From contig OX597829.1 in assembly GCA_951406725.2 (NCBI GenBank), positions 30,442,001 to 30,506,000 on the forward strand: a stretch of DNA of 64,000 nucleotides. The letters run 5' to 3'. Both the position numbers and the translations under genes were made by a program. Shown in pieces: positions 3,110 through 26,208 of the stretch. Origin of the DNA: Octopus vulgaris (lineage: Eukaryota). Under the pieces are notes generated by a model that ran no database searches, was not told the DNA's origin, and saw only the letters and a program-made list of their open reading frames with translations. The first letter of the stretch is position 1, and each line of letters begins with the position of its first letter.

Positions 3110-6100
3110 ATGGGCCCACACCTCCCACACCCTTAGGGTTGGCAGTCTCAATGTCGGCACACTGAAAGGTAGGTCTGGTGAGATTGTTGAGATGCTTGAA
3201 CAGAGACAAGTAGATTTATGCTGCCTCCAAGAAGTAAGGTGGAGAGGAGGTTCCACTTGGTTCCTCACAGGCAAACAACACAGGTACAAGATTTTCTGGG
3301 CAGGGAACACTGTCGGTGTTGGGGGCATAGATATAATTCTTGCAGAGAAATGGGTTGATAAGGTTATCGAGGTAGTCAGAGTATGCAACAGAATACTTAA
3401 GATTAGATTAGTGCTTCATCATGGGTTAGCAACCATTATCTTGGCCTATGCCCCTCAGCCAGGGCTACCCGATGGACAGAAAGACCAGTTTTATGACACC
3501 CTCTTGCAGACTACCTCGTTGACGAATGACAAGGACCTTCTCTTTGTGGCTGGTGACTTCAATGAACATGTTGGACAACATACAAGGTGTTTCCATGGCG
3601 TACATGGAGGTTATGGTTTTGGTTCCTGCAATGAGGAGGAAACCAGGCTGCTGGAGTTCTGCGATGCAAATGATCTTATGGTTTGCAATGCTAACTTCAG
3701 GAAACCTGCCAGTCATCTAGTTACCTACCGTTCTGGCAGACATACTAGCCAAATTGACTACATCTTCACCAGGAAAAGGGAAAGATGGCTGCTTATAAAT
3801 GCCAAAACCTTCCCAGGCGAAGAATGTACCCCACAACATAGACTGGTACTTAGTGACTTCAGGATCAGGACTAAATAGATGCCCAGAAGGCGACCAGCAT
3901 GGAGGAGAAGGTTCTGGAGCTTAAAGATCCTGCGAATGGACAGAGATTTAGAGACATATTACTTGAAGCCTTTGACGAAATAGAAGGGGATATATCCTCA
4001 CACAATGTAGAAGACAACTGGAGGTTTCTGCTGAGGGCCACTGACCAAATCTGTGGATTGTGCAAAGTCCCCTCTCAACCCAAAATAACATAGTGGTGGA
4101 ACAATGTTGTTGACAGGGCTATTAGAGTAAAGAAACTGGTTTGGAAGGACTGGAAGAATGGTGGTAGCAGGGAATAGTATCAGACGGGAAGCTAAGAGAC
4201 AGGTTTATTTAGCCAGAGGGGAAGCAGATAGGAAAAAAATTGCCAACATTCTGCACCGTGAAGACCAAAGACTTGAGGTATCTCATGTTGCAAGACAGTC
4301 TGTGAGAGAGAATTGTGATGTCATAGGAGAGAAATGTGTCCGCATGGATGATGGTTCACTTGCACTAGATGAGGCTGCAAAGAGAGAGATTTCGAGACGC
4401 CACTATGAAAGGTTGCTGAATAAAGAAAATGAATGGGAGAAAGAGAGTCTGCCGAATGTCGACCCAAAAGAGGGACCAGCTTTCTGAATTGACAGCACCT
4501 TGGTAGATAAAGCAATTAAGATTATTAAGACAGAGAAAGCCCCTGGCCCATCAGGAATCACTGCAGAGATGCTCAAAATATCTGGCGGTATTGGCTATAG
4601 CCTAGTCACCTGTATAGTTAACCAGGTGATACACGAAGTAGTCATGCCCAATGACTGGTGTAGCAGCATAATAGTCAACTGCTACAAAGGTAAAGGTAAC
4701 GCTTTAGATACAAATAATTAGAGGTATCAAGTTGTTGGATCAGGTAATGAAGGTCACGGAGAGGGTCATAGCCCAACTAATTAGAGAGAGAGTCAGTTTA
4801 GATGAGTTGCAGTTTGAGTTCGTGCCAGGGAAAAGCACCACTGATGCTATATTTCTGGTAAGACAGCTGCAGGAGAAATACCTAGCCAAAGATAAACCTC
4901 TGTACCTGGCTTTCATTGACATGGAGAAAGCTTTTGACAGGGTCCCCCAATCCCTTATCGAGTGGTCAATGAGGAAACTAGGGATAGATGAATAGTTAGT
5001 GAGAGCTGTGCAAGCCATGTACAGGGATGCTGTCAGTAAGGTGAGGGTTGGCAACGAGTACGGTGAAGAATTCAAGGTAGAGGTAGGGGTCCACCAAGGT
5101 TCAGTCTGCCCCCTCCTATTTATCATAGTCTTCCAGGCAATAACAGAGAAATTCAAGACAGGATGCCCCTGGCACCTCCTCTATGATGATGACCTTGCTC
5201 TAATTGCTAGTCACTATCAGAATGAGAGGAGAAGTTTCAGGTGTAAAAGCAAGGATTAGAATCGAAAGGCCTTAGAGTCAACCTAGCTAAAACCAAAGTC
5301 CTAATAAGCAGGAAGGCAGACAAACCACAAATCCCTCTAGGTAGATGGCCCTGCTCAATCTGTAGAAAAGGCGTAGGTAAAAACTGTATAAGATGTACCC
5401 AGTGTAAGCTATGGACACATAAGAAGTGCAGCAATATCAAAGGAAGGCTAACTGGGAAGATAGTTTTTGTATGTGGCAGATGCTCAGGAGCAATAAACAC
5501 TGAAAATATGCAGAGAACAACTTCCGCCAGATTCCAGGGAGAAAAACTAGAAGTAGTTGATAGCTTCCATTACCTAGGTGACCAAGTAAGTAGTGGGGGA
5601 GGGTGCACTGAAAGTGTACCTGCTAGAATAAGAATAGCCTGGGCAAAGTTCAGAGAGCTCTTACCTCTGCTGGTAACAAAGGGCCTCTTGCTCAGAGTAA
5701 AAGGTAGACTGTATGACGCATGTGTATGAACAGCCATCTACATGGCAGTGAAACATGGGCCATGACTGCTGAGTATATGCGTAAGCTCGCAAGGAATGAA
5801 GCTAGTTTGCTCTGCTGGATGTGTAATGTCAGTGTGCCTACTCGATAGAGTGTAAGTACCTCGAGAGAAAAGTTGTCCCTAAGAAGCATCAGATGTGATG
5901 TGCAAGAGAGACGACTGCATTGGTATGGTCATGTGGCAAGAATGGATGAGGATAGCTGTGTGAAAAAGTGCCACACCCTAGCGGTTGAGGGAACCTGTGG
6001 AAGAGGTAGACCCAGGAAGACCTGGGATGAAGAGGTAACGCATGAACATTAGGCCTCACTGAGGCAATGACTAGTGACTGAGACCTTTGGAAATATTCAG

Positions 6101-6120
6101 TACGTGAGAAGACTCAGCAA
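3110..6120 (+). mobile_element. RTE-clade LINE, near full-length ORF (APE endonuclease plus RT), inactivated
   Basis: ORF 3192-3878 has APE motifs (CCLQEVRW, AYAPQ, VAGDFN, SQIDY). Downstream fragments give KAPGPSGI, FIDMEKAFDRV, GVHQGS, LLYDDDL and RLHWYGHV. Several stops and frameshifts; the 3' UTR is missing. Confidence 0.95.
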
Positions 6121-6555: not shown

Positions 6556-7720
6556 GTAACAGTCCAGTGTAGCTGGCTGTAAATAGGTACCACAGTGTGG
6601 TATACTTCACTGTACTATATCTATGACCAAGACACTTAACTGTCTACACTCCAGTCTACCTAGCTGTAAAACGATACCACAGTGTGGTATAGTTCAATGT
6701 ACTGTGTCCATGAAAAACACACTTACATGTGAACAGTCCAGCTTACCTGGCTGTAAGTAGGTACCACAGTGTAATATAATTCTCTATACTATGTTGTCCA
6801 TGACCAACACACACAATTGTCAACAGTCCAGTCTACCTAGCTATAAGTAGGTACCGCTGTGTGGTATACTTCCCAGTAGCATTTCTATGACCAACAAATT
6901 TAAGTGTCCAAAGTCCAGTCTACCTAGTTGAATGTAGTCTCCACTGTACTGTGTCCATGATGAATCCACTTAACTGTCAACAGTCCAGCCTACCTAACTG
7001 TAAGTAGGTACCACAATGTTTTATAGCTCACTGTACTATGTCCATAACACAAACACTTCAAGGTCAACAGTCCAGTCCACCTAGCTGTAAGTAGGTACCA
7101 CAGTGTGGTATAGTTTACTGTACTGTGTCAACAAACAACACTCTTAACTGTTCACAGTCCAGTCTACCTAGCTGTAAAGAGGTACCACAGTGTGGTATAG
7201 GTCCCTGTACTGTGTCCATGACCAACACACTAGTGTCCACAACCCAATCTACCTAACTGTAAGTAGATTCCTCAACGTGGTATAGTTCACTGTATTGTGT
7301 CTATTAACTACACACTTAACTGTCCACAGTCCAGTATACCTGGATGCGAGTAGGTAGCACAGTGTGGTATACTTCACTGTACTGTGTCCATGACGAATAC
7401 ATTTACATGTCAACAGTCCACTCTACCTAGGTGTAGGTAGGTATCACAGTGTAGATTAGTTCAATGTACTGTGTCTGTGACCAAAACACTGAACTGTCAA
7501 CAGTTCAGTCTACCTAGTTGTCAGCTTGTACCACAATGTGGTATACTTCACTGTACTGTGTTCATGACCAACACATTTAAATGTCAGCAGTCCATTCAAC
7601 CTAGCTATAAGTAGGTATCACAATGTGGTATACTCCACTGTACTGTGTCCACCAAAGTGTGGTATACTCCACTGTACTGTGTCCATAGCCAACACACCTA
7701 TCAACAGTCCAGTCTACCTT
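6556..7720. repeat. Tandem satellite/minisatellite, ~87-bp unit, ~14 copies
   Basis: The anchor 'cagtccagtctacctagctgtaagtaggtaccacagtgtggtata' recurs near 6560, 6648, 6734, 6824, 6911, 6981, 7068, 7155, 7241, 7327, 7413, 7501, 7588 and 7705. Confidence 0.95.
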
Positions 7721-8389: not shown

Positions 8390-9226
8390 CAGACTTGCCA
8401 AAACTTTGCATAGTCTCAAGATTTTACTCATAATTTCATGCACTCACAAAACTTTTCTCATACTTTTTCCAAAGATTAACTCTAAAAAACTTTAGAATGA
8501 CTAAAGATTTATCTCAGTCCCAAAGCACAATTTTAGCCTACATCTAGACCGCTCAATGAAGAGTTTGTTTATATTCCAAAAGTTTTTCCAACACAACAGA
8601 TTATTGGAACCAGCTATATTGTTTCAAACTGCAGCAATCCTTATTTTCACTAAAAGTTAGTTGTTCTGTATAGTCACATGAAACAGAAATGATTGTTCAA
8701 CACTGTTAGGAAGAATAAGTCAGACAGTCGCTCTAAGCCAGCTCTAGATGGTTCACTTTCTAGTATTCTGCGAAATCTTAGTGTCCAGAGCCCACAACAC
8801 CATTTTCAACTTCAAGCTTGAAGCAGAATTGCTGAAAAGTGCTAAGAATGCAGCTTTTAATTATAATAAGCACAAAAAGGGCTAAAAGCTTAAAAATGAC
8901 TTGAATGTTATTAACTTATGTTATATTTACTCTATGGTTCGGCTATTTATGTTCTTGACTCGACTGGTTCTGTTGTTTATGCTCTAACTTTGAATTATAT
9001 TTACAATACACGTTTGTTCTTTCTTATCACACAAAAAGGATATTAATAAAAGCACTACATTTCGTTGTTTACTGTAGATATCAACTGACACTGAATCTCA
9101 ATTGTGCTTACACTAAAACTGGTTCTTCCAGAAAATTTGACATATTTCACTACTTTTTATCATTTCTCACTACATTTTCTAGCTCCAGGTTCAAATTCTC
9201 ACGACTTTTCAGGGTAGGCAAGTCTG
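8390..9226 (+). mobile_element. hAT-type DNA transposon deletion derivative
   Basis: TIR 'cagacttgcc' (8390) and 'ggcaagtctg' (ends 9226). Internal 'LFNTVRKNKSDSRSKPALDGSLSSIL...ELLKSAKNAAFNYNK' resembles a hAT C-terminal dimerisation region. No TSD was recognisable. Confidence 0.6.
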
Positions 9227-9828: not shown

Positions 9829-9915
9829 TATAAGTTTACATTTGTGACTGATTTTTCATCATTTACTGTTTTTTCTTTCTATTTGCACAATTTACACTTG
9901 TAACAAGTTGGAAGC

Positions 9916-10321
9916 GGCGATCTTTCGTCTCTAGTAGACCTTTCCGTCGATTTCCGTAAAAAAATTTTTTTTTTACATATGGGCTTGCGGGAACTTTTGA
10001 AGTAATATACATACATATACACATACACCGAGTAAAAAATTTCAGTTATCTCTTTCTTTCACACACACACTAACAGAAGCACTTCACTTACACAACATAC
10101 TGTCTGTCTCCCACACCCCATCAAACACACACACACACACACATGTACATCAATGCTTCCCATGCACGGTAACTTCAAAAGAACTTCCCTCGTCATACAA
10201 TCGCTTTCTCTTAGACTCTTTCGCTCTCATTACTTCAAAAGTTCCCGCAAGCCCATATGTAAAATAAAAAAGATTTTTTACGGAAATCGACGGAAAGGTC
10301 TACTAGAGACGAAAGATTGCC
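9916..10321. mobile_element. MITE with ~90-bp TIRs and 9-bp TSD (Merlin- or Mutator-like)
   Basis: Starts 'ggcgatctttcgtctctagtagacctttccgtcg' and ends 'ggtctactagagacgaaagattgcc'. Perfect TSD gttggaagc at 9907-9915 and 10322-10330. Confidence 0.9.
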
Positions 10322-10415
10322 GTTGGAAGCTTAGTTTCTTTCTTTTCCTATTTTTTTTATTTGTTTAACTTATCTATAGAAGAATCGCTAGCGCATCGGA
10401 CAAAAAGTCATTTGA

Positions 10416-10625
10416 AGGCGGTGAGCTGGCAGAAACGTTAGCACGCCGGGCGAAATGCTTAGCAGTATTTCGTCTGCCGCTACGTTCTGAGTTCAAATTC
10501 TGTCGAGGTCGACTTTGCCTTTCATCCTTTCAGGGTCGATAAATTAAGTACCAGTTACGCACTGGGGTCGATTTAATCGACTTAATATCTTTGTCTGTCC
10601 TTGTTTATCCCCTTTATGTTTAAGA
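10416..10625 (+). mobile_element. tRNA-derived SINE, family M (Meta-domain-like)
   Basis: A-box-like 'ggtgagctggcagaaacg', B-box-like 'gagttcaaattc' and central 'gaggtcgactttgcctttcatcctttcagggtcgataaattaagtaccag'. Many copies occur in the window. Confidence 0.85.
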
Positions 10626-11888
10626 ATGACTAAAAGTTTATCTTAGTCAATTTCAGCCTACGTCTAAGACCGCCCAGTGAAGACTTTGTTGATATTCCAA
10701 AAGTTTTTCCAACAGATTATTGGAACCAGCTATATTGTTTCAAATTGCAGCAATCCTTACTTTCACCAAATTCAGTCTATAGTTACAACGAAATGAGCCA
10801 TGTATACATCTGCCATCCATGGAAACCCTTGGCAGATGTATTACTAATATAATTGTCTTACCTGGTGTGCTGTGCAAGATCGCCTCAGTGACAGAAACAA
10901 ATCTTGATGATAATTTTATATTCAAAGGAAAAAAGAATATTTCTCAGCGGAACAACAAGAGCAACATTAAACCAAGAATTAAACAGTGGAGACATTTCTG
11001 ATGTTCAGTACGTTGTGGGTGGAGCAGATTCGCATCAAAGAGTAAGGATCTACTAGACTGCTATCCAGGTAATATCGTCCATAGGTGAAGGGCTATCACA
11101 ATGAACATTGCATATCAGTGTTGTAGCTTACTTGTGATCATGAACTGATAATTTTGTTGTTGGGGTTCAAATTCCTACAAGTACAATACATTTTATGCTG
11201 CAACATGGGGAAATATTGAATATTTCTTAGACATGTTTTCATCAATAAAATCCTTAGAAAGCATTGATTTTGATTCCGTTCATGAGGAAATCGTTGATTA
11301 CTGTTTTTTCTTCTCTATTTGCGCAATGTACGTTTGCATTTTAGGTAACAAGTTAGAAGCTTACTTTCTTTCATTTTGTATTTGTTTTTTAAAGTTCAAT
11401 TTGCTTATCTGTAGAAGAATTTTTAGTGCGTCAGACAAAAATGTTTAGCGGTATTTCTCAGGCTCTTTTCGTTCAGAGTGCAAATCCGGCCTAAGTCAAC
11501 TTAACCTTTTACTCTTCAAGTGTCGTTAGTAATGAAGTACTGGACCAATGCAATCGATTTGCCCCCTACCCTCAACACTGCCAGCCTTGTACCAAATTTC
11601 TCATTTTGTGAAGTCTTCTTCGATATAGTGCTTAGTACCAAATGAAAGCTGATCGAGCAGGCGTTATGACCAAAGAATTCTGATAACCGACTCTTTTTAT
11701 TAAGATTATGTATAACTACATGATCTATTACATCTGTTCACTTTCTTTTATTTTTGGAGCAAAGTGTATATTAGACAACACTATTCATTGTGTCCTCCTT
11801 TTTAAGATGACAGTGTAGTTTGAGAGAGATTTGACTGCTATTTCTAGCAGGTCGAATATCTTCAGTGTCTTTACACCCATAAAAGTAA

Positions 11889-11941
11889 ATTTGCATTATT
11901 CAGCTGATGTCACTTCCGGCTCCTTTGTTTAACAGGTATGT
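11889..11941 (+). promoter_or_regulatory. Candidate housekeeping-type promoter with a short first exon and donor site
   Basis: Octamer ATTTGCAT (11889), abutting CRE-like/ETS motif TGATGTCACTTCCGG, pyrimidine initiator-like CTCCTTTG and AG|GTATGT donor at 11936. A matching acceptor 'tttctttctattttag' ends at 12182. Motif evidence only. Confidence 0.35.
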
Positions 11942-13716
11942 AAATTCCATCCAACTGGGCTCTGAGTACCACTTGACAATCTGTGTGGTACCAAGAAGCT
12001 GGAACTATTGTGCTTGAGCAACTCCACACCACCATTCAGAAGAAAAGAATAATGGTTTCCTATTAGCTTCAGATGATTTACCTTCTTATTACCTCGTATG
12101 TTACCTTTTATAGCAAATAATTCTTATATCATTGTAATTTATTTCTTATGTGTATCTTTATTCATTTTTCTTTCTATTTTAGATTGATACTCTACTTCTA
12201 AAAACAAACGACAGGCCAGAAATGCTGTTTATTAATTCACCTGTACTTAAAAGATTCCAAGAAATAATAGAACATTTATACATGGATTTTATACGTAAAG
12301 AATACATGATTTTCTGCAATAGCCATAGAAAAATTGACTCAAACTAGAAGTTTATTGGACAATTAATTCCATAGGTTCGATAGCTTTGGACTCTTCTATG
12401 TTTGCTAAGGGAACTGTAATCAAAAGCTGAAACCGTTCGGCGAAATTAGCTCGCTTGTTTATCTCTTGCTTCAAGAAAATTACTTTATATCGCAGTCTCT
12501 AATGGTTTTTCTTCACACATGGAAACTTAGCAGAGACCACTTTTCTAACCAGATTTTTTTGGTAAATTTCTGTATTAACACCTGCACGATTTTAACTAAG
12601 GAAAAAAAAAACTCGGACTTTTTGCTTGGACTAGAGTACCCTGACCCCCTAATATGCTGCAAATCTCCTTATTTTGGTTCGGAACGAGTAGACTCAAGAT
12701 CAAAAGGTCAGGGGGCATCACTAACACCTCGCTAAAGCGAGCCGCCAATGATAACGGGAACTTCACTGTTAGCGGCTCAGCCTACTCAAATGCTGGAAGA
12801 AATGATTCACTGACAGCTCCCAGTACTTACGAAGTTTGTTTGTTCGGCTACGGAAGCAGTGACCCTCCAAGTACTTGTGAAACCTAAAGTTTCATTTGTC
12901 AAATTCCCTTGGGTATCAACAAAAGTTTGTTTTGTTTTCGTAATATCAAATTGTAAGCCCGTTGTTGGTTACGTTAAATGTCTCGATTTTTTTTTTTGTT
13001 ATGCTGCAACACAGAATGGTGCGAGCCTCCCTAACCCACCGATGGTATGTTCGGTTTATCGTCGTTTCTGAAAATTGTTAATTTAAGAAAAAGTACCAGC
13101 ACTACCTTCCTGCAAAAATGAAGGAAAATAATTCCCTTCTTGAAATAATTTGCTTCACTTTTTTTCCTGTATAATGTTGGACAAGTTCAAAAATTTCGAG
13201 CACTCTTCATTTTATGGTAAAGTATGGCAATGTCTTTTTTCAATCCTTACTATCTACTGAACTTGGCTCATTGCTCTGCGAAACAGTGCTTTAGAGTAAT
13301 AATAATCGATGTTCAAATATAGTTTCAGTCTGTATCTGGTTAATGTTGGATTGTAAGCTGCTTTCTTTTGGTAAAAATGAAAGACTTACCTTTTGTTCCT
13401 GCGTGTCTGGTTGGACACTGAAATAACTAACAATTCATCATAGGTGAATATATGTGCTGACCATCTTAACGCACTTTAAAATTTTTCTGGAGATAATTCG
13501 ACCCTAAAGTGGGGAATTGCACCAACTTCATTTTCCTGTCGTTGTTGTAAAATTGAATGAGGTCAAATGTTATAAGCTATATTCTTCAGGCTTCTAAAGT
13601 TAGTCTTATGTATTGACCAATGCGAAGTAGCACAGGAACGTGCGCCAAAAACCCACCTTTCCTGTGGCATTCTACTTCTGTTGTATTTTCGTGAGATATT
13701 CAATTTTTTTATTTGT

Positions 13717-13998
13717 TACTAGCAGTATCGCCCGGCGTTGCTCGGGTTTGTAAGGGAAATAACTATATAAGCATTTTTAGAGAGTTACTTCCCTTATATA
13801 ATAGCAAAAAATGCATTAAAAATGGGAAAAAATGATGGTCAAATTTTTTTTTTTAAATCGTAGACTCACGTTAATACCCAGAAGGGCTCGATAAGAATCA
13901 CGACTATAAGATACCCGCTTTTGGTTAAACTGCACCGCAAAATGTGGGAGTAGTTAGGAATCTAAATCGTAGGAGACACACTCACAACTTCACTTTTA
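13717..13998 (+). mobile_element. Non-autonomous Helitron/Helentron-like insertion
   Basis: Begins 'tactagcagtatcgcccggcgttgctcgggtttg' (ACTAG plus a GC hairpin cccgg/cggg), an arrangement typical of Helentron/DINE-like ends. It ends in 'cacaacttcactttta'. Confidence 0.5.
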
Positions 13999-14053
13999 CT
14001 TTGTTCGAAAAATATTTAATTTGTGTAAAAAAAAATTAAATACATCGCGCAAG

Positions 14054-14243
14054 CTAGTCGTAAGTAGTCGATCCTGCGACTTTTTAACCCTAACCTTAGT
14101 TTGTTTATAAAAATAATTTATTTACTTAGTTTAAAAAATCATTTCCTTTGTTCGAAAAAATATTATTTAATTTTCTTTGATATGTATTCAGCCTTGAAAT
14201 ACAAACATACGCGCAAGTCGTAGGATCGACTACTTACGACTAG
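14054..14243. mobile_element. Small inverted-repeat element (MITE-like) with internal taaccctaacc
   Basis: 'ctagtcgtaagtagtcgatcctgcgactt' (14054-14082) is the reverse complement, with 1 mismatch, of 'aagtcgtaggatcgactacttacgactag' (14215-14243). Confidence 0.7.
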
Positions 14244-16403
14244 ATATCGCGGATGCGCGCACCGGGACCACTGTTCGCTAGTAGTACCCGGGTCGATCCC
14301 ATTGTGCCGCAACTTTTGAGCAACTGTTATGTTGTCAAGAGTGGAACAAAAATTTTAAGAAAATAACAAAAAAGTGGAAATTTTACCGATGAGTTATAAG
14401 GCACGAAAAGAAAATGACTCTGTCCAGACACAACTGTATTCTTTCATTTTGAAAAATGATTGTTCGGGGGTATGCTTAAAAATATACTAGATATTAAAAT
14501 TTTTTTTGTTAATTCACACACAGGGGTTGACTTAGCAGTTTGTCGCCGCTACACTGCCTTTTCCTTGGTGTCAGATTTAATTTTAAGAAGCAATTTGAAA
14601 GAATTAATCACTATCAATCGATTACTGTCTTCTATTTTTCATTTCATGTTAGGTGTATCGTAAGAATACGTTACCGTCCCCAACATTGCGGCTTTTTGGT
14701 ACCAGTGAATGTCTAGTATTGGTGTTGTCATGTTGGATGTACTGGCAGATGCTATAATCTCTTTTGGCAGTTTTTTTTTTTTTTTTTCTGAGTGGTGAGA
14801 CGAATCTGAAATTAAAATTCCAACCTTTTTTTAAAACCCATTCACATTTAGCACGATTGCTATACGTAAATGGGTTGATGTTATCAGAGACTTTGCTACA
14901 AACGCAACGGCCATTTTGAATGTTACATCCTTTGAATTGGATTTTGAAGCTTTGAATAATAGTGATGGCTGAAAATAAAAATAAGCTAAAGTATTAAATG
15001 GTTCATTGTTGTGAGTTTTACTATAATGTTAATTAAAAATATTCAATAGTTTAACATTTTAATTGAAAATATTTTAAAATTATTTCACTGGTTCTACTTA
15101 GCTCAAGCTTGAACGAGTGAACTCGAGATCAAAAACATTCCAGCCATAACCATACCATGTTTTCTTTGATGGTGGCAAGTGTAGCAATGTATTATTAATG
15201 TTTTTGCCCTTATTTCTAATTTTTCTTTCTCAGGTGGTAAAATGTGATCTGAGAGGATTAACTGAATGACAGGTTTAAGCATTTTTAGGTGGTAAAATGT
15301 TACCAGAGAGGTTTAAGTACTTCAGTTGTTTAAATCTTTTTGAGATAACAGAATGTCACTGGAAAGAGTTAACTGTTTGATAGGTTTCAATTTTTTTGTG
15401 GTGGTAAAATCTCCCTGGAGAGGTTTAAGTTCGTCACAGGTTTAAATTTCTGATGGTAAAAATGTGAAGCAGTTAGACCCTTCCAATCCCATTCTACCAC
15501 CTACATTTGATGTACTGGCAGATGCTAGCTAGAACTAGGTGACGGGCTAAGCAGGAAAAGTTGCTGGTCTGAGTTAATGGCTAAATCACTTCTGCTAGAC
15601 CACATAATTTATCCATTAGATTTCCTGATCCGAGGGGGCAAATTGAGTTTTGTTGCTAGGAGAATAGCTTTTGAAATTGTATATTCTGAGATAACTATGA
15701 ACATTGAGCATCTCTTTTGTTACACACTTTTTCCTTCTTGGTGTGTATCCAGTGAAAGACTTGTTGAAAAGGATCAAGTTGTTTTCTCTCCTATATATTT
15801 CATATATTACTAGTTTTGTCTTGCACATGTTTGGATACTGAAAATAGCTAAGAAACCCTCACTAGTTAATATTTTAATTTTTTGTTGGAAGTAATTCCAC
15901 ACTAAAGTGGTAAATTTCACCAGTATATGGCTGTTATTGTTGGGAAAATAAATGATATCGTGTCTTTTAAGCTGTATTCCTGAGGTTTCTAAAGTTTGTC
16001 TTAAATATATTCCATCGCAAAATAGCAGAGGTTCTCCACTAGACGTCTTTGTAGATAATGTAGGTGAAGGGATATGCTAAAAAATTTACCAGTGTACACA
16101 TGAGTCGGTGGATTAAATCACTTGTATCAGGTACATTGAATTCTAAGTTGGCCAATATTTTTTGTCTTGTGTCTGTTCAGACACCGGAAATAATTGAGAA
16201 TTTCTCCAGGTGTGATAAAAATAAAAAACTGTTTTTATGGACAGTTGAACAATGTAATGAATTTCCTCAACAACATTGCTATCCTCATTGTGGGACAAGC
16301 GTTGTCAAATATTATATGCTATATTCGTGAGGCTACTAAAGTTGGTCTTATTTATTTTGCTATCACAATATAGCAGAGGTATATTTGTATTCTACTTAGC
16401 TTA

Positions 16404-17469
16404 CCCTTTCGTTACTATATTTCTGACCAAAATACACCCCTTATGTGTTTCAATTAATTTCTAACATAATCATAAATTTAGTCTGGTTTCATTAAACAAC
16501 TATAACTTTTTTATTTATCAATATATTAATGTGAATTTTGGAAGATAATTTAATGAAATGTTCTCAACCAATTCTATACTATAATTTTTGTCACAAAGTA
16601 ACTCTTATTGCAGGTAGATACAGGTAAATTCAACAAAATATAAAATTATAAAAATTTTGTTCAAACATCGCTATAGAAAATGGGTTATTAGCTAATATTC
16701 AATAGGGTATTACAAGAAAATTTTACGATAGAATTTGTTATTCTGGGTAACTTTCTGATACCCATAATAATATTTATGGCAAAATAGTCTTAATTTCATT
16801 TAAGGTTGTGGGAAACCACTAACTATCCTTTCTTTCGCTTTGTTTACGCTTAGCGTAACGGTTCGTTTCCACTGTAATGATTTCAAATAGGCTCATTCGA
16901 AAAACTAAAAAGAAATAGTCTAAGGCTTTAACTCTTCTGGGAAAGTCTGTGGCTTGGTCCAGTTTCTTCAGAAAAATCACCGAAAGAAACAGTTTTTAAA
17001 TTTTCACTCCATTCAGGTGCACATTCATTTTCTTTATCGCTGTTGGAGCTCTCGGATTCACTGTTTTCACTTTCAGAAAATGAAACATCAGATTCATTAT
17101 CAAATACCACGTGCTTTTTTTTTTTCAGTCATAGTTAGATTTATGAAGGTCTTCAGTAGAAAATCCTTCGAATTCTGACTCGCTGCTTGATATAATGAAA
17201 TTCGTATCCATTTTTTGTCAGAATTACAAATTTTGAAAACACAATAGGAACAAATTTCAGAAAAAAATCTCCCAAAATTCACGGAATTAAAATTACACTT
17301 TGATTTTTGTACAAAACTGTAGTTGAACTCTTTACGAAGTATAATACGTATTTTCACGAATGTACTAGAGAATTTGCTCTGATATTCTCATTTAAATATG
17401 AATAGGTAAATTTGGGCGGTTTGGTGACATTAACCAAAATCTTTTTCGGGCGGTTTGGTAACGAAAGGG
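16404..17469 (-). mobile_element. piggyBac deletion derivative
   Basis: TIR 'ccctttcgttac' / 'gtaacgaaaggg' with TTAA on the right and ctta on the left. The minus strand has an acidic N-terminus (ORF 16928-17110) followed by 'LFEIITVETNRYA', a piggyBac/PGBD motif. Confidence 0.85.
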
Positions 17470-19616
17470 TTAAATATCATACATTCAAGTCATTTTTTCC
17501 CCTTTTGCAGAAGGCAAATGTAAATTTTCTCCATTTAATGATCGCTTTATAGGTAGAATCATATTATGATTTACTTGGGTATCCTGAAATTACTTGTTAT
17601 AATTTCCTTGCCTGTGCGTGTACACATGCACATTGAATTGAATTTGAAATTGTATTTTCTGACATGGCTCTTTTACTCATTTCAGCCATCTGGCTGCAGT
17701 CAACATTGAGTATATTTTTTATCATACACTTTTCCCTTCTCAGTGTGTATCTAGTGAAAGACGTGTTGAAATGGATAAAGTTCCTTTCTCTACTATAATT
17801 TTCAAATATGGCTAGTCTTGTCTCCCACATATCTGTTTGGACAATAAAAATAGCTGAGATTCCTTCAGTTAATATTTAAATGTTTGGACATAAATCTGCA
17901 CCAATATAAATTTCACCAACAGCATATGGCTATCATTGTTGAAGAAATGAAATGAGGTCATGCATTTTATGCTGTATTCATTAGGCTTAAGTTTGTCTGA
18001 AATTTTCTCCATGATGTAGCAGAGGTTTCTCTAAATTCTATTCGAAAGCTTATACTGTTTTAATTGTTCCTTCATGAACAAGAGACGTGTAAATTTTTCA
18101 CCATTTTAATTATTACTTTGCTGCTATTCCTCAGCTATATCAAAATGTTTGTCATGAAGTTAATAAACACACCGTGTTGATCTTTGTGCTGCAGCTTTTG
18201 AGCAACCGTTACGTAATTAAGAATGGAATTTGAAAAAAAGGGAATTGGAGAAATGGTTGGGTTAAATGTTATATGCTGTATTCATGAGGCTTCTAGATTT
18301 TGTCTTAAATATTTGTCCTTTCAAAGTAGTAGAGATTTCTCTATATTGTGCTATAAATTTTTGAGCATATCTTGCATTGTCAATGGGGGTATTTGCTAAA
18401 AATAGCATGGACACCAATGGCATACAGTTGATCTACATTGTTTGTTCAGCTCTCCTATGTTGATGCCATTTTGCTTTTTGCTCTCCAGATAGAATCATAT
18501 TCTCATGATTTACTTGGGTATCCTGAAATTACTTGTTACAATTTTCTTGTGTGTGTACACACACAGATCAAGTACTATGTTTGAAGAAGGTTTTATGCTT
18601 CTTTTTCAATGATGTCATGATTACATTTATATTTCAGCATGTAACATTTAAACTTATCAAAATCTGATCCAAATATTGTGTGTTTTATGTTCAAACTAGC
18701 CAGATCTAGCCTCTCTCGCCTATCCTACTGTCATTCTGAAAATAAACAACCACATCATTGAAATTTCAAATCTAGAAGACTATGTGTGATGGAAATAAAT
18801 ATTGACTGAGTAATCTGAATGCTGTGACCATCCCAGGTTTTCTTCCATGCTGGTGGTTGTAGCACTGTATTAAAGCCTTTGCCCTTATTTTTCACATTTC
18901 TTTTTGAGATTGTTCATGGGAATGCTTAGATATATTTAATATATTTTAGCGAATACATAGAGATCAACTCCACAGTTTGTTGATGTTACACTGCGTTTTC
19001 TTTGGTGTCATTGGATTTAATCTTAAGCACCATTGTGAAAGAATTGTTATCAATTGATTACTGTCTTCTATTTTTCATTTCATGTTAGGTGTATTGTTAG
19101 AATATGTTACCTAATGTTCCCAATAATGCGACTTTTTGGTACCAGTGAATGTCTAGTATTGATGTTGTCATGTTTGATGTACTGACAGATGCTAGCTGGA
19201 GCTAGGTGAAGGGATATATGCAGGAAAAGTTACTGGTCTGAGTTAATCACATGGCTAAATCACTTGTGCCTGACTACATAATTTGTCCCTTAGATTTTCT
19301 AGTTAACATTCTATGCAGGTTAATTGCTTTTCGTTTCTCAGAGCATTATAAAAAACAGAATTGCTTTTGGAGTTGCATTTTTGAGATAGATATGAACACT
19401 GAGTATATTTTTTGTTGTGCACTTTACCTTTTCAGTGCGTATCCAGTGAAAGACGTGTTGAAATGGATCAAGTTCCTTTCTCTGCAATATATTGCTAGTT
19501 TTGTCTTGCACATGTATGTTTGGATACTGAGAATAGCTAAGTAACTTTAAGTGGTCAATATTTTAATTTTTGTTGGAAAATAATTCCAAACTAAATGGTG
19601 AATTTTGCCAATAGTA

Positions 19617-20921
19617 TTGGGTTGGCCAAAAAGTCCGTTTTTTTTTTTTTATTTTTTTTTTTAAAAAAAAAAAAAATTTTTTTTTAGGTGAAAATCAAAA
19701 AGTAAACAATTGTGAAAAATGTATTTAATCAATACAATAGTTACCATTTGCTTCTGTAACCTTTCGCCACCTGTTGGGTAGATCTTTAATCTTCTGTTCA
19801 AAGAATTTAAGTTCTTTATAAGGAAAAAGTTTCCAAGCGAGTTTTCACATCTTCATCAGAATTAAAATTTTTTCCGTTCAATGAATTTTGCAGTGACCGA
19901 AACAGATGGAAATCTGATGGGGCCAGATCTGGAGGGTATGGAGGGTGAGGCAAAACTTCCCACTCAAGCTGCAGAAACTTCTGCCGAGTAATCAAGGCAG
20001 TGTGTGGCCTTGCATTGTCATAGTGGAAAACGTGTTTGCGATTCACCAGTTCTGGCTGTTTTTTATGAAGAGCCGTGTTTAATTTATCCAGTTGTTCACA
20101 ATAAACCTCTGAATTAATGGTTTCATTCAAGGGAAAGTTCAAAAAAGATAACACTCTTCCAGTTACACCATATCGATAACAGAACTTTCTTTGAGTGAAG
20201 ACCTGGTTTGGGTGATCATTTTGGAAAATCCCCTGCCATTTTCCATGATCTTCATTTCACATTATTGTAAACTACCCACTTTTCATCTCCAGTAACAATT
20301 CTTCTCAAAAAGGGTTCGTTGTTTTCCCTTTTCAGTAATGAATTGCAAATGGAAACCCTCTGGACAAGATTTACTTCTGTCAATTTATGGGGAACCCAAA
20401 CATCAAGTTTAGAAACGTAACCAAATTTATGCAATTCATTTTCCATACTGGTTTTGGATGTATTGAGAATATCTGTGATATGTCTGGTTGCAAGACTGCA
20501 GTCTTGTTTCACTACAGCTCTCAGTTAGTCGATGTCAATTTCTTTTTGCCAGCCAGAGTGAGGTGCATCTCTTACTGAAAAATTCCCTGATCGAAATCGA
20601 GCAAACCATTTCTAGCACACCCATTCTGAAACAGCATTCTCTCCATACACATTGCATAACTTTCGGCAAGTTCCTGTTGCTTTCTTTGCTTTTCTGAAGT
20701 AAAAAAGCATAAGATGCCGATAGTGCTCTGCTTGGTCTTCCATGTCTAGGCTCAAATGCAATCAAACAAGTTGCAATCTCTCTCCTTTCAGGCTTGTTAC
20801 ACACTGATGTAATCTTGGTCGTTCTACCGAATAGTTTCTAAAGAAAAAGAATATTGGAACAGTGATTAGAAGACCGGACAGTTGATAGTAAAAAAACGAA
20901 CAGACTTTTTGGCCAACCCAA
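19617..20921 (-). mobile_element. Full-length mariner (DD34D) transposon with a frameshifted transposase
   Basis: TIRs 'ttgggttggccaaaaagtc' / 'gactttttggccaacccaa', TA TSDs, length 1305 bp. Motifs WVPHKL, TGDEKW, DNARPH and YPPDLAPSDFHLF are present. Confidence 0.97.
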
Positions 20922-23232
20922 TATATCGCTATCTTTAAGGAAATTAGTTTGTGTTATTCTGAGGCGTCTAAAGTTTGTCTTAAATATTTGCCATCACAAA
21001 GTAGCAGAGGTTCCCCACCAGACGTTTTTGTCATAGGTTGTGTAGGTAAAGGTTTAAATTTCTGATGGTATAAATGTGAAGCAGTTAAACCATTCCAATC
21101 CCATTCTACCACCTACATTTGATGTACTGGCAGATGCTAGCTAGAACTAGGTGACCGGCTAAGCAGGAAAAGTTACTGGTCTAAGTTAATGTCTAAGTCA
21201 TTTCTGCTAGACCACAATTTATCCATTAGATTTCCTAATTCGAGGAGGCAAATTGTTGTGAGGAGAATTTAAAAATAGAATTGCTTTTGAAATTGTATTT
21301 TCTGAGATAACTATGGACATTGAGCATCTCTTTTGTTACACTCTTTTTCCTTCTTGGTGTGTATCCAGTGAAAGACTTGTTGAAAAGGATCAAGTTGCTT
21401 TCTCTCCTATATATTTCATATATTACTAGTTTTGTCTCATACATATTTGGATACTGAAAATAGCTAAAAAAAAAAAACCCTCACTACTTAATATTTTAAT
21501 TTTTTGTTGGAAGTAATTCCACACTAAAGTGGTAAATTTCACCAGTATATTGCTGTTATTGTTAGGAAAATAAATGATATCGTGTCTTTTATGCTGTATT
21601 CCTGAGGTTTCTAAAGTTTGTCTTAAATATATTCCATCATAAAGTAGCAGAGGTTCCCCACTAGACGTCTTTGTAGATCATGTAGGTGAAGGGATATACT
21701 AAAAAATTTACCAGTGTACACATGAGTCGGTGGGTTAAATCACTTGTATCAGGTTAGTTTTTCCCTTAACTCTTTAAAATATAAACTGGCCATATCCGGC
21801 CAAATGTATTCTACCTGTTTTATGTTCAAACTGCCAGATCTGGTCTCTCAGATTGACAGTATCAATCGATTACTGTCTTCTATTTTTCATTTCATGTTAG
21901 GTGTATTGTTAGAATATGTTACCTAATGTCCCCAATAATGCGACTTTTTGGTACCAGTGAATGTCTAGTATTGATGTTGTCGTGTTTGATGTACTGGCAG
22001 ATGCTAGCTGGAGCTAGGTGAAGGGATATATGCAGGAAAAGTTACTGGTCTGTGTTAATCACATGGCTAGATCACTTGTGCCTGACTACATAATTTGTCC
22101 CTTAGATTTTCTAGTTAACATTCTATGCAGGTTAATTGCTTTTCGTTTCTGGGAGAATTATAAAAAACAGAATTGCTTTTGGAGTTGGATTTTTGAGATA
22201 GATATGAACATTGAGTATATTTTTTGTTGTGCACTTTACCTTTTCAGTGCGTAACCAGTGAAAGACGTGTTGAAATGGATCAAGTTCCTTTCTCTGCTAT
22301 ATATTTCATATATTGCTAGTTTTGTCTCTCGCATGTGTTTTCAGATACTGAAAATAGCTAAGACAATTTCAGTAGTTGGTTTATTTCTGCTGGAAGTAGT
22401 TTTACCTACAATCTATCGCTGTCATTGTTGGAGGAAATGAATGACATGTATTTTATATTGTATTCCTGAGGTGTCCAGAATTTTTCTTAAATATAGCAGA
22501 GGTTCCCCATCAAACATGTTGTTAGTAGATCATGTAGGTGAAGGGATATGCAGAAAAATTTACTGGTGTACATGAGTCACTGAGTGAAGTGGCTTGTACC
22601 AGGTTAGTTTTTCCCTTAAATTCTATGCTTCAAATTCTTAGTGGGCCAATGTTTTTTCATTTCCCCCCAGGTGTGATGAAAAAGTGATTTTTACAGAGAA
22701 TTCAACATTGTAGTGAATTTGCCCAACAACATCACTATTATCATTGTGGGACAGTTGTCAAGTGTTGTATGCTATATTCATGAGGTTCCTGAATTTCCTG
22801 ATATAAAAGCCAATCACAATATACCAGAGGTATATTTGTATTTTACTCTTTAGCTTTGAAAAATCTGTCATGTTATTGTTTCCCTTTTGCAGAAGACAAA
22901 TGTAAATTTTCTCCATTTAATAATCATAGAATCATATTCTTATGATTCACTTGGGTATCCTGAAATTACTTGTTATAACTTTCTTGAGTGTACACACGCA
23001 CGCACGCAGGCAGGCAGGCAGGCGGGCGTGTAAACACCTGTGTGTGTAAAGGCAAGTTTACACTTTATTTCTCTTGACAGTTCCTTTGTGTGGTGAGGGG
23101 AAATTGAAATTAACAGTAATTCTTACCTTTTAGATCCTGTTCACATTGAGCATGATTCTTATATGTATATTGGTTACCACCTGAAAAATTTTAAACAAAT
23201 GACAACTTTCCAGTGACATTCTACTAATTTAA

Positions 23233-23450
23233 CCCTTTAGTGTTCAGATTACTCTGTTAAATGTGATAATTTTTCACTCATTGTTTTGAATTAATCATGC
23301 AATATGTTATAGCTTTGAGGTTTCAATGATGTGATTGTTTGTTTTTAGAATATCAATGTAGGTTAGGTGTGAGAGGCTAGATATCGCCCGTTTGAATGTA
23401 AAACATGTAGGATATCTGGGCCAGATATGGCCGGTTTAAACACTAAAGGG
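23233..23450. mobile_element. TTAA-flanked MITE (piggyBac-type)
   Basis: ttaa|ccctttagtgtt ... aacactaaaggg|ttaa. Related partial copies lie near 18650-18820 and 21767-21850. Confidence 0.85.
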
Positions 23451-24751
23451 TTAAGTGAAGCAGTTAAACCTTTGAAGCCATAAATTAGTGAAACTTTTAT
23501 TTTGTAGTAAAATTTTCATTTTGTTTGTGACTAATTTCATTCATAATGATTCTTATATTTTCAATGAAATTTGATAATTGTCTTTCTTATTGGTTAGGTT
23601 TGGGAGGCACTAAAATACATACTTCCAATCTTTACAGCACATGAAAGCATATTAAGAGTATACAAATGCTTATTGTGTGTACTGAAATATTTAGTCATGT
23701 TTGTATACATAAGTGATGGTTGCTATGTATGTAGCTTCTAAATATCCCTTAATATGTTGGCTCCCAGATGACTTACTGGAGCATTCCCCTGAGTTGTCTC
23801 TTTGTTTCTGTGAACAATTTGGGAGCTGGCATACTATGAAATTTTAAGTGTAATTAATGTACACTAGAACTTTTTTCTTTATGTATTTTATAATTTTTTT
23901 TCCTTTCTTTTGATTTTCACATCTACTGGATTTTACCATGTATTTAAGTAAAATTAAACACTGAATAGAGATTAAATTATGAAAACGATCCCCCACTGGA
24001 TTGTGGGTAAAAAAAAAACATTGTGATCTTTGACTCCCATGCTTTTGTATACAGATAGAAATTAAATTTATTGGGCGTGTTAAAAATGTTACTTAAAATG
24101 GAGTGTTTGAGAAAACTGTAGGGAGGTTAAACTCTTTTTTTCTTTAATTCTTATTACTTTGAATTGTGTTACATTTCTTATACGTACATACAAAGAGTAT
24201 AATTTATGTGAAATAAAGATGAATCTTTGAATTTCATTGTGTTCTTGTTTAGATTTATACTCAAAATGGTTGAATTTTAAGAATTTTTTTTTTTTTTTTT
24301 TTTTTTTTTGCTCATTTTGAAAAGTCTAATATATTTACTCATTTTCTAGTCTAACATTAGTGCAAGCAATGTGTAACATGTTCCTATATATTATAATTCA
24401 TACAAGGATGGTGGACTGGCTGGTTTGTTAGAGCATTGGGCATGTAATATTGTCTTGCAATGTCAAGGGGTTGATATAATGGACTGGACTGTTTCCTCCC
24501 TCCCCTCCTAAAACATTAGGAACAGTTATTCTTATTCTTTTACTTGTTTCAGTCATTTGACTGTGGCCATGCTGGAGCACCACCTTTAATCGAACAAATT
24601 GACCCCACAACTTATATTCTTTGTAAGCCTAGTACTTATTCTATCAGTCTCTTTTTGCTGAACTGCTAAGTTACGGGAACATGAACACACCAACATTAGT
24701 TGTCAAGAGATGGTGGACACACACATACATATAAAAAAAAATATATATATA

Positions 24752-26208
24752 AACACCTTCAGGTAGATGGCCTTGCTCGATCTGTAGAAAAGGCGTAGGT
24801 AGGAACTCTATAAGATGCCCCAAGTGTAAGCTATGGACACGTAAGAGGTGCAGCAATGTCAAAGGAAAGCTAACCAGGAAGATAGTTTTTGTATGTGGTA
24901 GATGCTCTGGTTCAATAAAGACTGAAGATGCGCAGAGACCATCTTCCGCCACATTCCAGGGAGAAAAACTTGAAATAGTTGATAGTTTCTGTTACCTAGG
25001 TGACCAAGTCAGTAGCGGGGTGGGTGGGCCGAAAGTGTAACTGCTAGAGTAAGAATAGCCTGGGCAAAGTTCAGAGAGCTCTTACCTCTGCTGATGACAA
25101 AGGGCCTCTCGCTCAGAGTAAAAGGCAGACTGTATGATGCATGTGTGCGAACAGCCATGCTACATGGCAGTGAAACATGGGCCGTGACTGCTGAGGATAT
25201 GCGTAAGCTCGCAAGAAATGAAGCCAGTATGCTCCGTTGGATGTGTAATGTCAGTGTTCATACCCGACAGTGTAAGTGCCTTGAGAGAAAAGTTGGACCT
25301 AAGAAGCATCAGATGTGGTGTGCATGAGAGGCGTCTACGCTGGTATGGACACGTAGTAAGAATGGATGAAGATAGTTGTGTGAAAAAGTGCCACGCCCTA
25401 GCAGTTGAGGGAACCTGTGGAAGAGGTAGACCCAGGAAAGCCTGGGACGAGGTGGTGAAGAACGACCTTCGCGCTTTAGGTCTCACCAAGGAAATGACCA
25501 GAGACTGAGACCTTTGGAAGTATGCTGTGCGCGAGAAGACCCGGCAGGACACATGAGGCCATAACCCATGGCCCCTACCTGGGACGTAGTCAGTCCACCT
25601 GTGCATACCTTCCTTCTTGGGACACTTATGAAGACCTGTTGAGGCAAGTGAAAATCAAACCAAATCAAAATCGATGAACATCAATGGAATTTGTATCTTT
25701 GTGGTACCAGTGCCGGTGGCACATAAAAAAACCCATCTGAACGTGGCCATAGCCAGTACCGCATCGACTGGCCTCTGTGCTGTGCGCACGTAACAAACAC
25801 CATCCGATCGTGGCCGTGTCAGCCCCGCCTGGCCTCCGTGCCGGTGGCACTTAAAAGACACCATCCGAGCGTGGCCGTTCGCCAGCCTCGTCTGGCACCT
25901 GTGTCCGTGGCACATAAAAAACACCATCCGAGTGTGGCCATTCGCCAGCCTCGTCTGGCACCTGTGTCGGTGGCACATAAAAACACCATCCGAGCGTGGC
26001 CGTTCGCCAGCCTCGTCTGGCACCTGTGTCGGTGGCACATAAAAAGCACCCACTACACTCACGGAGTGGTTGGCGTTAGGAAGGGCATCCAGCTGTAGAA
26101 ACACTGCCAGATCTGACTGGCCTGGTGCAGCCTTCGGCTGTCCCAGACCCCAGTTGAACCGTCCAACTCATGCTAGCATAGAAAGCGGACGTTAAACGAT
26201 GATGGTGA
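24752..26208 (+). mobile_element. 5'-truncated RTE LINE with complete 3' UTR and (GAT)n tail
   Basis: Matches the 3' part of the RTE at 5330-6120 (LYDACVRTAMLHGSETW, RLRWYGHV). The 3' UTR carries ~60-bp tandem repeats and ends 'gcggacgttaaacgatgatg'. Confidence 0.92.
25700..26045 (+). repeat. ~60-bp GC-rich tandem repeats in the RTE 3' UTR
   Basis: The unit 'ggtggcacataaaaacaccatccgagcgtggccgttcgccagcctcgtctggcacctgtgtc' occurs about 5-6 times. Confidence 0.9.

What the first reader, a model, noticed from the sequence alone, without database searches (positions are those of the whole stretch)
13390..22985. ~9.6-kb array of shuffled, duplicated non-coding modules of unknown origin
Seen in sequence: several 50-200-bp modules that match no TE I recognise recur in changing order and at very different divergences. 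Module D ('gctgtattcctgaggtttctaaagtttgtcttaaata...tagcagaggt') occurs at ~13576, 15971, 16318, 17971, 18276, 20954, 21593, 22458 and 22771. Module A occurs at 14610, 19048 and 21860; module B ('atccagtgaaagacgtgttgaaatggat') at 15746, 17748, 19441, 21362 and 22252; module G ('atgatttacttgggtatcctga') at 17566, 18505 and 22942. All copies share one orientation, and none was seen elsewhere in the window. Inference: a locus repeatedly expanded by tandem duplication, either a polycistronic structured-RNA locus (miRNA, H/ACA-like or lncRNA) or a decayed multi-copy gene. Coleoid cephalopods are known for lineage-specific miRNA expansions, so this is the best candidate for a new system here.
Basis: partly seen in the sequence, partly recalled or inferred. 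Interest (0 to 1): 0.8.

Follow-up and report, generated by a model that had tools for sequence, protein, structure and literature searches.

The report
Decaying locus-private tandem repeat array
A 10-kb stretch holds five near-complete and several partial copies of one ~520-base non-coding unit that is low-copy in a related genome, and the copies have drifted apart with no clear sign of conserved small RNAs, so it is likely an ordinary, repeatedly re-duplicated local repeat, possibly inside a weakly transcribed RNA.

Summary
The modules are real and sit at the stated coordinates, but they are mostly not shuffled. Six of them (E/F-H-B-C-I-D) form one collinear ~520-nt unit, present as five near-complete copies plus at least seven partial ones. 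Copies differ by K2P 0.05-0.41 and are interrupted by high-copy DNA transposons. In a genome-sized run of a close relative, 9 module-only bins have depth 5-14 against 2x10^4-8x10^5 in the TE bins, so the core unit is not a dispersed TE. The miRNA/snoRNA reading failed most tests: no Rfam match, fold z-scores like the flanks, no conserved ~22-nt block in D or E/F, and strongly maintained hairpins excluded for five of six modules. D and B keep a weak + strand hint (p about 0.04 each, combined 0.08). No coding signal was found. Contigs of small runs, not on record as RNA, hint at unspliced transcription. Verdict: a degenerate local tandem array, probably neutral. A piRNA, hairpin-RNA or lncRNA role stays open until small-RNA reads are mapped. 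The scan's index held no related note.

The parts
11905..11935 (+). candidate promoter / first exon (CRE-like and ETS-like motifs, pyrimidine run, then a strong GT donor at 11936); inferred only
   Evidence: read from the sequence; donor score 8 of 9; ETS-like 9-mer occurs once in the window, and 7 of 100 shuffles have one; CpG o/e 0.57-1.26 in 9-15 kb bins; motif names recalled
12183..13216 (+). candidate exon of a host transcript (acceptor ends 12182; donor-like GT at 13217)
   Evidence: acceptor; contig 18 of run X7 aligns 12973-13216 and leaves exactly at the GT; where its other 193 nt go was not shown
13376..13648 (+). partial unit P0 (C'-I-D)
   Evidence: K2P 0.33-0.37 to full units
13721..14290 (-). 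inserted high-copy elements: Helitron-like end plus MITE-like inverted repeats
   Evidence: depth 777,001 and 29,634 in run X8; arms 14046-14082/14215-14251; Helitron label from a recalled hallmark
14302..14876 (+). side segment X-M-A-K (copy 1)
   Evidence: the bin 14419-14835 is high-copy in X8 (7,699), so M or K may be TE-derived
15149..15502 (+). L, four tandem 55-56-nt J units, and one inverted J that forms a long predicted hairpin with the last J
   Evidence: hairpin 15398-15502 z -3.55
15535..16042 (+). full unit U1 (F-H-B-C-I-D)
   Evidence: E 8.6e-163
16043..16391 (+). E plus partial unit P1 (C'-I'-D); this D copy is the best pre-miRNA-shaped hairpin
   Evidence: 16302-16390 z -2.68
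16393..17474 (-). piggyBac-like DNA transposon relic
   Evidence: terminal inverted ends read; depth 2e4-5.8e4 in X8; family label recalled, no Pfam hit above cut-off
17485..18034 (+). G0-G, then near-full unit U2 (H'-B-C-I-D)
18184..18565 (+). X, partial unit P2 (D), X', G
18672..18795 (.). MITE fragment (high copy)
   Evidence: boundaries approximate
18827..19200 (+). side segment L-M-A (copy 2)
19201..21021 (+). full unit U3, split by the mariner insertion
   Evidence: E 9e-145 on the TE-free array
19615..20923 (-). Tc1/mariner transposon, 34-nt terminal inverted repeats, TA duplication, broken transposase
   Evidence: PF01359 E 1.1e-6
21050..21754 (+). J'-inverted J-A2'-unit U4-E: recent block duplicate of 15438-16132
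   Evidence: K2P 0.053
21757..21852 (.). MITE fragment (high copy)
21858..22513 (+). A plus full unit U5; 21860-22376 is a recent duplicate of 19048-19555
   Evidence: K2P 0.053
22516..23175 (+). E, partial unit P3 (C'-I'-D), G0-G, K
   Evidence: E copy 22540-22620 folds at z -3.06
23184..23477 (-). inverted J remnants split by a piggyBac-like MITE (23227-23453)

Best explanation
This is a locus-private, degenerate tandem array of a ~520-nt non-coding unit that likely grew by repeated local duplication (probably unequal crossing-over) and likely evolves without sequence constraint, possibly within the 5' intron or body of a + strand transcript. Shown: unit structure, collinearity, spread of divergence, TE insertions, low copy number at >=80% identity in a close relative. 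Inferred steps: (1) an ancestral E/F-H-B-C-I-D unit duplicated in tandem; (2) the repeats seeded further mispairing, giving partial copies that lack H-B, block duplicates that carried side segments (A, G, K, L, M) along, and one inversion of J; (3) DNA transposons then inserted; (4) the apparent shuffling is the result of offset breakpoints and deletions. If the organism is an Octopus and the rate is neutral, the duplications would date from about 45-55 My (oldest) to about 7-8 My (youngest).
For: Collinear unit copies. Graded divergences of 0.05, 0.06, 0.10, 0.20-0.24 and 0.31-0.41. All 9 bins that hold modules without TE (of 30 bins) have depth 4.9-13.7 in genome-sized run X8, against 2e4-7.8e5 in Helitron- and piggyBac-like bins. 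Site rates are uniform: gamma alpha near 1000 for 5 of 7 alignments, 2.6 and 10 for the other two. No conserved 20-nt window in D (p 0.71, power 1.0) or E/F (p 0.56, power 0.96). Fold z-scores match the flanks: + strand 17 of 313 windows below -2, against 22 of 331. Pair retention and two-sided changes equal neutral simulation in 4 of 5 simulated hairpin sets, with B at p 0.05-0.06. Covariation in D is within shuffles (210 of 500). Strongly maintained stems are excluded for D, E/F, C, I and J (at most 2% of simulations as weak as observed), while unselected decay fits all six. No frame with a synonymous excess in 15 pairs. The rate of 0.0036 per My is from PMC13282606 methods.
Against: Residual + strand structure: consensus-fold p 0.04 for D and for B, combined 0.079, with nothing on - (p 0.92). 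Stems chosen after the fact reach p 0.008-0.05. Half-strength selection is not excluded for D, E/F, B, C or I (11-21% of simulations). One C-module window is more conserved than expected (p 0.012, one of six tests). The 13.75-kb stretch 10770-24523 lacks the SINE/LINE-tail repeats that occur at 20 loci in the other 51 kb and lacks dinucleotide microsatellites; neutrality alone does not explain this. Indels in multiples of three make up 29 of 82, in non-independent pairs. Repeated duplication over tens of My at one spot can also reflect selection. The host transcript is not shown.
Confidence: 0.6

Rival explanations
1. A piRNA-cluster-like or hairpin-RNA (endo-siRNA) precursor: a long + strand transcript processed into many small RNAs, so that the sequence is free to drift while the locus keeps gaining duplications, inversions and DNA-transposon traps.
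For: It predicts no site-level constraint, as seen. The three large TEs appear to lie on - (two orientations rest on recalled hallmarks; 3 of 3 is weak). Inserts are DNA transposons rather than SINEs; passages of PMC6128900 report DNA-transposon enrichment in snail piRNA clusters. Passages of PMC9925758 report that bird and mammal piRNA loci are hotspots of tandem duplication and inversion with low conservation. The inverted J gives a 105-nt hairpin at z -3.55. Unspliced contigs cover 21860-23008 in small run X7.
Against: No small-RNA data were seen. TE content is only about 33%, below the 54% genome mean quoted for O. vulgaris, whereas snail clusters are TE-enriched. No long near-perfect inverted repeat exists outside TE pieces. 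Contig depth is low and patchy.
Confidence: 0.14
2. A lineage-specific miRNA cluster, partly or wholly decayed, in which D, E/F, B and J were once pre-miRNA hairpins and one or two copies may still be processed.
For: Single copies fold like pre-miRNAs: D 16302-16390 z -2.68, E 22540-22620 z -3.06, J/inverted J z -2.76 to -3.55 (hand-picked windows). The D long stem is paired in 79.5% of cells. There are nominal + strand signals in D and B. PMC9699675 left out miRNAs found in only one Octopus species.
Against: Only 1 of 8 D copies and 0 of 5 B copies folded reach shuffle p < 0.05, against 89.9% of miRBase precursors (PMC3895842 table; its shuffles keep mononucleotide composition only). No conserved mature-sized block in D or E/F. 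No Rfam miRNA family at gathering score. PMC9699675 found 94 novel genes in 90 families, none co-occurring with another novel family on a scaffold.
Confidence: 0.1
3. A Firre/Xist-type lncRNA, or an intronic enhancer array, whose local repeats work as degenerate protein-binding modules in RNA or DNA.
For: It fits the definition of local repeats, and these are enriched in lncRNA loci (PMC4820808 passages). There is a candidate promoter and a contig that breaks at a GT donor upstream. The region is free of SINEs.
Against: No module shows exon-like enrichment or a visible splice joint among the rows shown (15 of 287 joints listed). No short motif is conserved beyond the uniform-rate null in D or E/F.
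Confidence: 0.1
4. A decayed multi-copy protein-coding gene or exon array.
For: Some D-module indels keep one frame (read). 29 of 82 indels are multiples of three. Acceptor-like sites are more frequent on + (19 against 6 in 11.9-24 kb), which the T-rich strand also predicts.
Against: No frame has a synonymous excess, and stops occur in all frames. 0 of 21 array or flank ORFs reach a Pfam cut-off. No homologue for a 97-aa unit ORF at lengths 53-170. Atlas best score 0.78.
Confidence: 0.04
5. A nest of an old transposon family, or a snoRNA host gene.
For: One bin holding M, A and the start of K is high-copy (7,699) in X8. The candidate first exon has a pyrimidine-rich start, a trait recalled for snoRNA hosts.
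Against: Core-unit, A, G, J and X bins are low-copy at >=80% likeness. There is only one C-box/D-box pair on + in the array, and it is not kept in the sister copy. No Rfam snoRNA reaches its gathering score.
Confidence: 0.04

Closest known systems
Local repeats (LRs) as defined for the mammalian Firre lncRNA locus (PMC4820808; passages seen)
   Same: Several 50-500-nt repeats recur discontinuously in one locus and are rare or absent elsewhere; they are non-coding and possibly within a transcription unit.
   Different: Here most modules are parts of one collinear ~520-nt tandem unit in a 10-kb span. No exonic repeat, protein binding or function is shown, and no sequence relation to Firre is implied.
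Degenerate tandem arrays / relic minisatellite-macrosatellite loci formed by unequal crossing-over (general knowledge, recalled)
   Same: Head-to-tail unit, partial copies, nested block duplications, graded divergence, TE insertions.
   Different: Low copy number and little homogenisation (up to 40% divergence); side segments and one inversion are mixed in; TRF does not report the unit.
Coleoid novel miRNA genes (PMC9699675; parts 1-2 of 8 of the text, passages, and part 1 of 3 of the tables supplement seen)
   Same: Presumed same animal group; a few copies fold into hairpins of pre-miRNA size.
   Different: The novel families there are nearly all single-copy and unclustered. Here no conserved mature arm or maintained stem is found. 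Their sequences could not be compared (data supplement cut).
piRNA clusters of molluscs (PMC6128900, passages) and amniote pachytene piRNA loci (PMC9925758, passages)
   Same: Low sequence constraint, structural instability and DNA-transposon inserts.
   Different: Production of piRNAs is the defining trait and was not testable; TE content here is not raised.

Membership tests
Local repeat / degenerate tandem array | multiple copies within one locus | tested here: met
Local repeat / degenerate tandem array | not dispersed elsewhere in the genome | tested here: met
   core unit, A, G, J and X bins at depth 4.9-13.7 in genome-sized run X8 at >=80% likeness; holds for a close relative's contigs only, older copies under 80% are not excluded, and M, K, L are not cleared
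miRNA cluster | stable pre-miRNA hairpin in the copies | tested here: not met
   1 of 8 D and 0 of 5 B copies at shuffle p < 0.05; array equals flanks
miRNA cluster | mature ~22-nt arm more conserved than loop and flanks | tested here: not met
   D p 0.71 and E/F p 0.56 with power >= 0.96; B-C, A and G underpowered; C-I p 0.012
miRNA cluster | structure kept by compensatory change | tested here: inconclusive
   neutral; nominal p 0.008-0.05 for stems picked after the fact; combined p 0.079; strong selection excluded except for B, weak selection not excluded
miRNA cluster | mature and star reads with 2-nt overhangs | not testable with these tools
   only contigs were offered
snoRNA host locus (C/D or H/ACA) | conserved C/D boxes or match to a known family | tested here: not met
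   one C/D pair on +, not kept in the sister copy; no Rfam hit at gathering score; H/ACA boxes checked by eye only, rRNA targets not tested
piRNA cluster / hairpin-RNA locus | dense 26-31-nt (or phased 21-22-nt) reads from a long precursor | not testable with these tools
   no raw small-RNA run was listed
lncRNA or intron of a transcription unit | transcribed from a defined strand | tested here: inconclusive
   contigs of small runs X7 and X1 cover parts unspliced at depth 2.6-7, and one breaks at a GT; no holder is on record as RNA, X5 has almost no module cover, and contigs give no strand
Transposable element family | many dispersed copies, terminal hallmarks | tested here: not met
   low depth of core modules beside high-depth TE controls
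Pseudogene / exon array | codon-position bias or protein homology | tested here: not met

The most novel reading that the evidence does not exclude
The array is the body of an undescribed octopus small-RNA or local-repeat lncRNA locus: a promoter near 11.9 kb drives a long + strand precursor through a SINE-free 14-kb island that has kept re-duplicating for ~50 My and traps DNA transposons antisense, yielding piRNAs or hairpin-derived small RNAs from J/inverted-J, D and B without conserving their sequence.
Probability: 0.2. Interest if true: 0.6.

Novelty: new member of a known kind. Interest (0 to 1): 0.22.

Why it matters
On the best reading it matters little: it is one more local repeat, useful as a dated record of recurrent duplication at one locus and as a warning that modular repeats with occasional hairpins mimic a miRNA cluster. 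If small-RNA reads prove it a piRNA or hairpin-RNA precursor or a repeat-built lncRNA, it would be a class of octopus regulatory locus that two-species miRNA annotation would miss. It would also link a SINE-free island and a duplication hotspot to small-RNA production in a cephalopod.

Tried and rejected
No whole genome is held for this window, so genome-wide BLAST and synteny stayed open. Rfam gave 0 matches at gathering score over 64 kb. At E <= 10 over 10.5-24.2 kb it gave 7 matches, all far below gathering score; the best lies on a MITE palindrome. No tRNA genes. A loose hairpin count did not discriminate (6.2 against 5.2 per kb on +, output partly cut). A stricter count was equal to the rest of the window overall and about three times higher on + only against low-GC hairpins, with non-independent copies and an unmatched denominator, so it was not used. 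No RNA holder is listed on record. Bins 15253-16086 and 19006-19422 had no cover in X7, X1 and X5; this is not taken as evidence. Divergence to organism C is similar in array pieces (38 differences in 3,668 letters, 5 pieces) and upstream pieces (11 in 902, 2 pieces), too close to test constraint; one mixed TE/array piece (0 in 418) was left out. Exact patterns of B in metagenome contigs and of G in viral contigs gave 0 loci. Deep homology of side segments (M, A, G, K, L, J) to the core unit was not established (z -0.4 to 3.2). A host protein gene was sought among 12 splice-flanked and 13 other ORFs; only TE domains passed a cut-off. A recalled likeness of short stretches in B and D to the seed regions of miR-71 and miR-2 got no Rfam support and was dropped. 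The bacterial promoter scan is irrelevant to this genome. The scan's own index returned two unrelated viral notes. Paper searches showed no description of this locus in their listings. The octopus genome paper PMC4795812 is not held. The data supplement of PMC9699675 was cut and its PDF supplement was not read; both may bear on whether a known miRNA lies here.


Full report
Observation. Exact-seed repeat finding, blastn and iterated nhmmer over all 64 kb recover D 9 of 9, A 3 of 3, B 5 of 5 and G 3 of 3 listed copies on the + strand. Of 92 non-self blastn hits from 12.5-24 kb, only 2 fall outside that stretch, and both are a T-run. More modules were found (E/F, H, C, I, J, K, L, M, X), and the array spans about 13376-23480.

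Anatomy. About 3.4 kb of the span is inserted TE: a mariner with TA duplication and a PF01359 hit, piggyBac-like and Helitron-like relics (labels from recalled hallmarks; high copy), and three MITE pieces. With these removed, 80% of 6,792 nt is covered by another local copy. A 523-position profile of F-H-B-C-I-D matches four full copies, one near-full copy, four 3'-partial and three 5'-partial copies, all collinear. E and F are the same module. The 'shuffling' is therefore mostly a tandem unit read through offset duplications and deletions, with side segments (X-M-A, G0-G, K, L, J) carried along in larger block duplicates. The J unit also occurs inverted. K2P distances fall in tiers: 0.05-0.06 for the two youngest blocks, 0.10, 0.17-0.24, and 0.31-0.41 for the partial copies and J units. 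With the rate of 0.0036 per My quoted in the methods of PMC13282606 (parts 1-2 of 3 read), these would be about 7-8, 14, 23-33 and 43-57 My. That assumes neutrality, an Octopus host and no gene conversion.

Is it a TE family? I laid four runs on 11500-24000 at 80% likeness. In the genome-sized run X8 (organism C, 2,225 million letters read), the 9 of 30 bins that hold modules without TE have summed depth 4.9-13.7. Helitron- and piggyBac-like bins reach 2e4-7.8e5 and mariner bins 107-173. The tool warns that summed depth is no copy number, but a gap of three to five orders of magnitude with internal controls is clear. The core unit, A, G, J and X are thus low-copy at this likeness. One bin with M, A and the start of K is high (7,699), and one with G, K and a short microsatellite is raised (332), so M and K may be TE-derived. 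Copies under 80% identity cannot be seen this way.

Is it transcribed? One search listed 24 runs, 11 of which hold part of 21000-23000; none is on record as RNA. Small run X7 (62 million letters) has a 1,307-nt contig covering 21860-23008 without a gap, plus other pieces at depth 3-7. Its TE-to-module depth ratio is about 100 times lower than in X8, which plain genomic DNA would not give. One X7 contig aligns 12973-13216 and leaves at a GT donor-like site. X1 covers three short pieces and X5 almost none. Upstream lie a CpG-richer zone, an ETS-like 9-mer found once in the window (7 of 100 shuffles have one) and a strong donor at 11936. T exceeds A on + from 11 to 25 kb. Together these suggest, but do not show, a + strand transcript with the array in its 5' intron or unspliced body. 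No host protein exon was found among 25 ORFs tried.

Is it structured RNA? Rfam gives nothing at gathering score and only seven sub-threshold matches at E <= 10. Sliding 80-nt folds have the same z distribution as flanks: + strand 17 of 313 below -2 against 22 of 331; - strand 25 of 313 against 26 of 331. Of hand-chosen hairpin windows, 1 of 8 D copies and 0 of 5 B copies reach p < 0.05, against 89.9% of miRBase precursors in a table of PMC3895842 (passages; a different shuffle). Site rates are uniform. A tree-based test finds no conserved 20-nt window in D or E/F despite power of 0.96-1.0; B-C, A and G are underpowered, and C-I gives p 0.012. Rooting on the best-folding copy, pair retention equals neutral expectation in D, two E/F sets and J, and B is borderline; D covariation lies within shuffles. 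Some results point the other way. Consensus-fold tests give p 0.035-0.04 for D and 0.04-0.07 for B on +, combined 0.04 by my hand sum and 0.079 with the dinucleotide null, with nothing on -. Stems picked after the fact give p 0.008-0.05. In magnitude, strongly maintained stems would fold far better than observed (at most 2% of simulations as weak for D, E/F, C, I, J; 7% for B). Half-strength selection is not excluded except for J, and an ancestral hairpin decaying freely fits all six. PMC9699675 (parts 1-2 of 8 and passages read) reports 94 novel miRNA genes in 90 families with no two novel families on one scaffold, which does not resemble this array. It omitted species-restricted miRNAs, and its sequences could not be checked.

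Is it a dead gene? No frame shows a consistent synonymous excess in 15 pairwise alignments, and stops occur in all frames. 0 of 21 array or flank ORFs pass a Pfam cut-off. One unit ORF has no homologue at lengths 53-170, and the overlapping frame has no Atlas hit above 0.78. 29 of 82 indels are multiples of three, in overlapping pairs; I treat this as unexplained but weak.

One unexplained feature. The stretch 10770-24523 is by far the longest gap in the window's interspersed repeats (13.75 kb; the next is 4.4 kb). It holds none of the 20 merged SINE/LINE-tail loci, and no dinucleotide microsatellite lies between 10125 and 27712, against 41 elsewhere. Its inserts are DNA transposons. The window was chosen after the fact, and a promoter-proximal or open-chromatin setting could explain the pattern, but it keeps a functional reading alive.

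Mechanism and verdict. Most likely (0.6) this is a degenerate local tandem array that propagated itself by unequal exchange and drifts neutrally, perhaps within a weakly expressed transcript. It fits the known category of local repeats (PMC4820808 passages). Rivals are a piRNA or hairpin-RNA precursor (0.14; passages of PMC6128900 and PMC9925758), a decayed or species-restricted miRNA cluster (0.10), a repeat-built lncRNA or enhancer array (0.10), a pseudogene (0.04), and a TE nest or snoRNA host (0.04). Nine paper searches showed no description of this locus in their listings, and the scan's index held nothing related. Interest is 0.22. Mapping small-RNA reads is the one test that would move it.

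Noticed in passing
window 10770-24523: 13.75-kb island free of the window's SINE/LINE-tail repeats and dinucleotide microsatellites, but with several DNA transposons; CpG o/e is higher at 9-15 kb than in the module bins.
   Followed up: partly
window 15300: A 3,270-nt contig of organism C (run X8) aligns 14829-15300 and no further long piece of it is listed, hinting at an insertion or rearrangement inside the J repeats in that organism.
   Followed up: no
window 6558-7719: 87-bp tandem satellite, about 13 copies at 75% match, with no blast hit outside itself.
   Followed up: no
window 14830-14882: Short strong hairpin at the end of K copy 1 (z -4.3), not kept in K copy 2.
   Followed up: partly
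window 13615-13686: Pre-miRNA-sized hairpin (z -3.1) made of the 3' half of D and unique sequence, present in one copy only.
   Followed up: partly
window 11070-11330: Short stretches resembling E, B and A modules upstream of the candidate promoter; profile hits are not significant (E 0.75-2.6).
   Followed up: partly
window 8491-8654 and 10620-10770; 9915-10006 and 10229-10322: Two local duplicated pairs upstream of the array, the second inverted; probably DNA-transposon remnants.
   Followed up: no
window 12186-12347: Short open frame (54 codons stop to stop, ATG-led part about 41) just after the candidate acceptor; no Pfam match.
   Followed up: partly
window 3075-6120, 24700-25650, 35270-35629, 58171-58458: Other TE relics: LINE endonuclease/RT pieces, a CENP-B-type (pogo-like) HTH and a Mos1-type HTH.
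   Followed up: no
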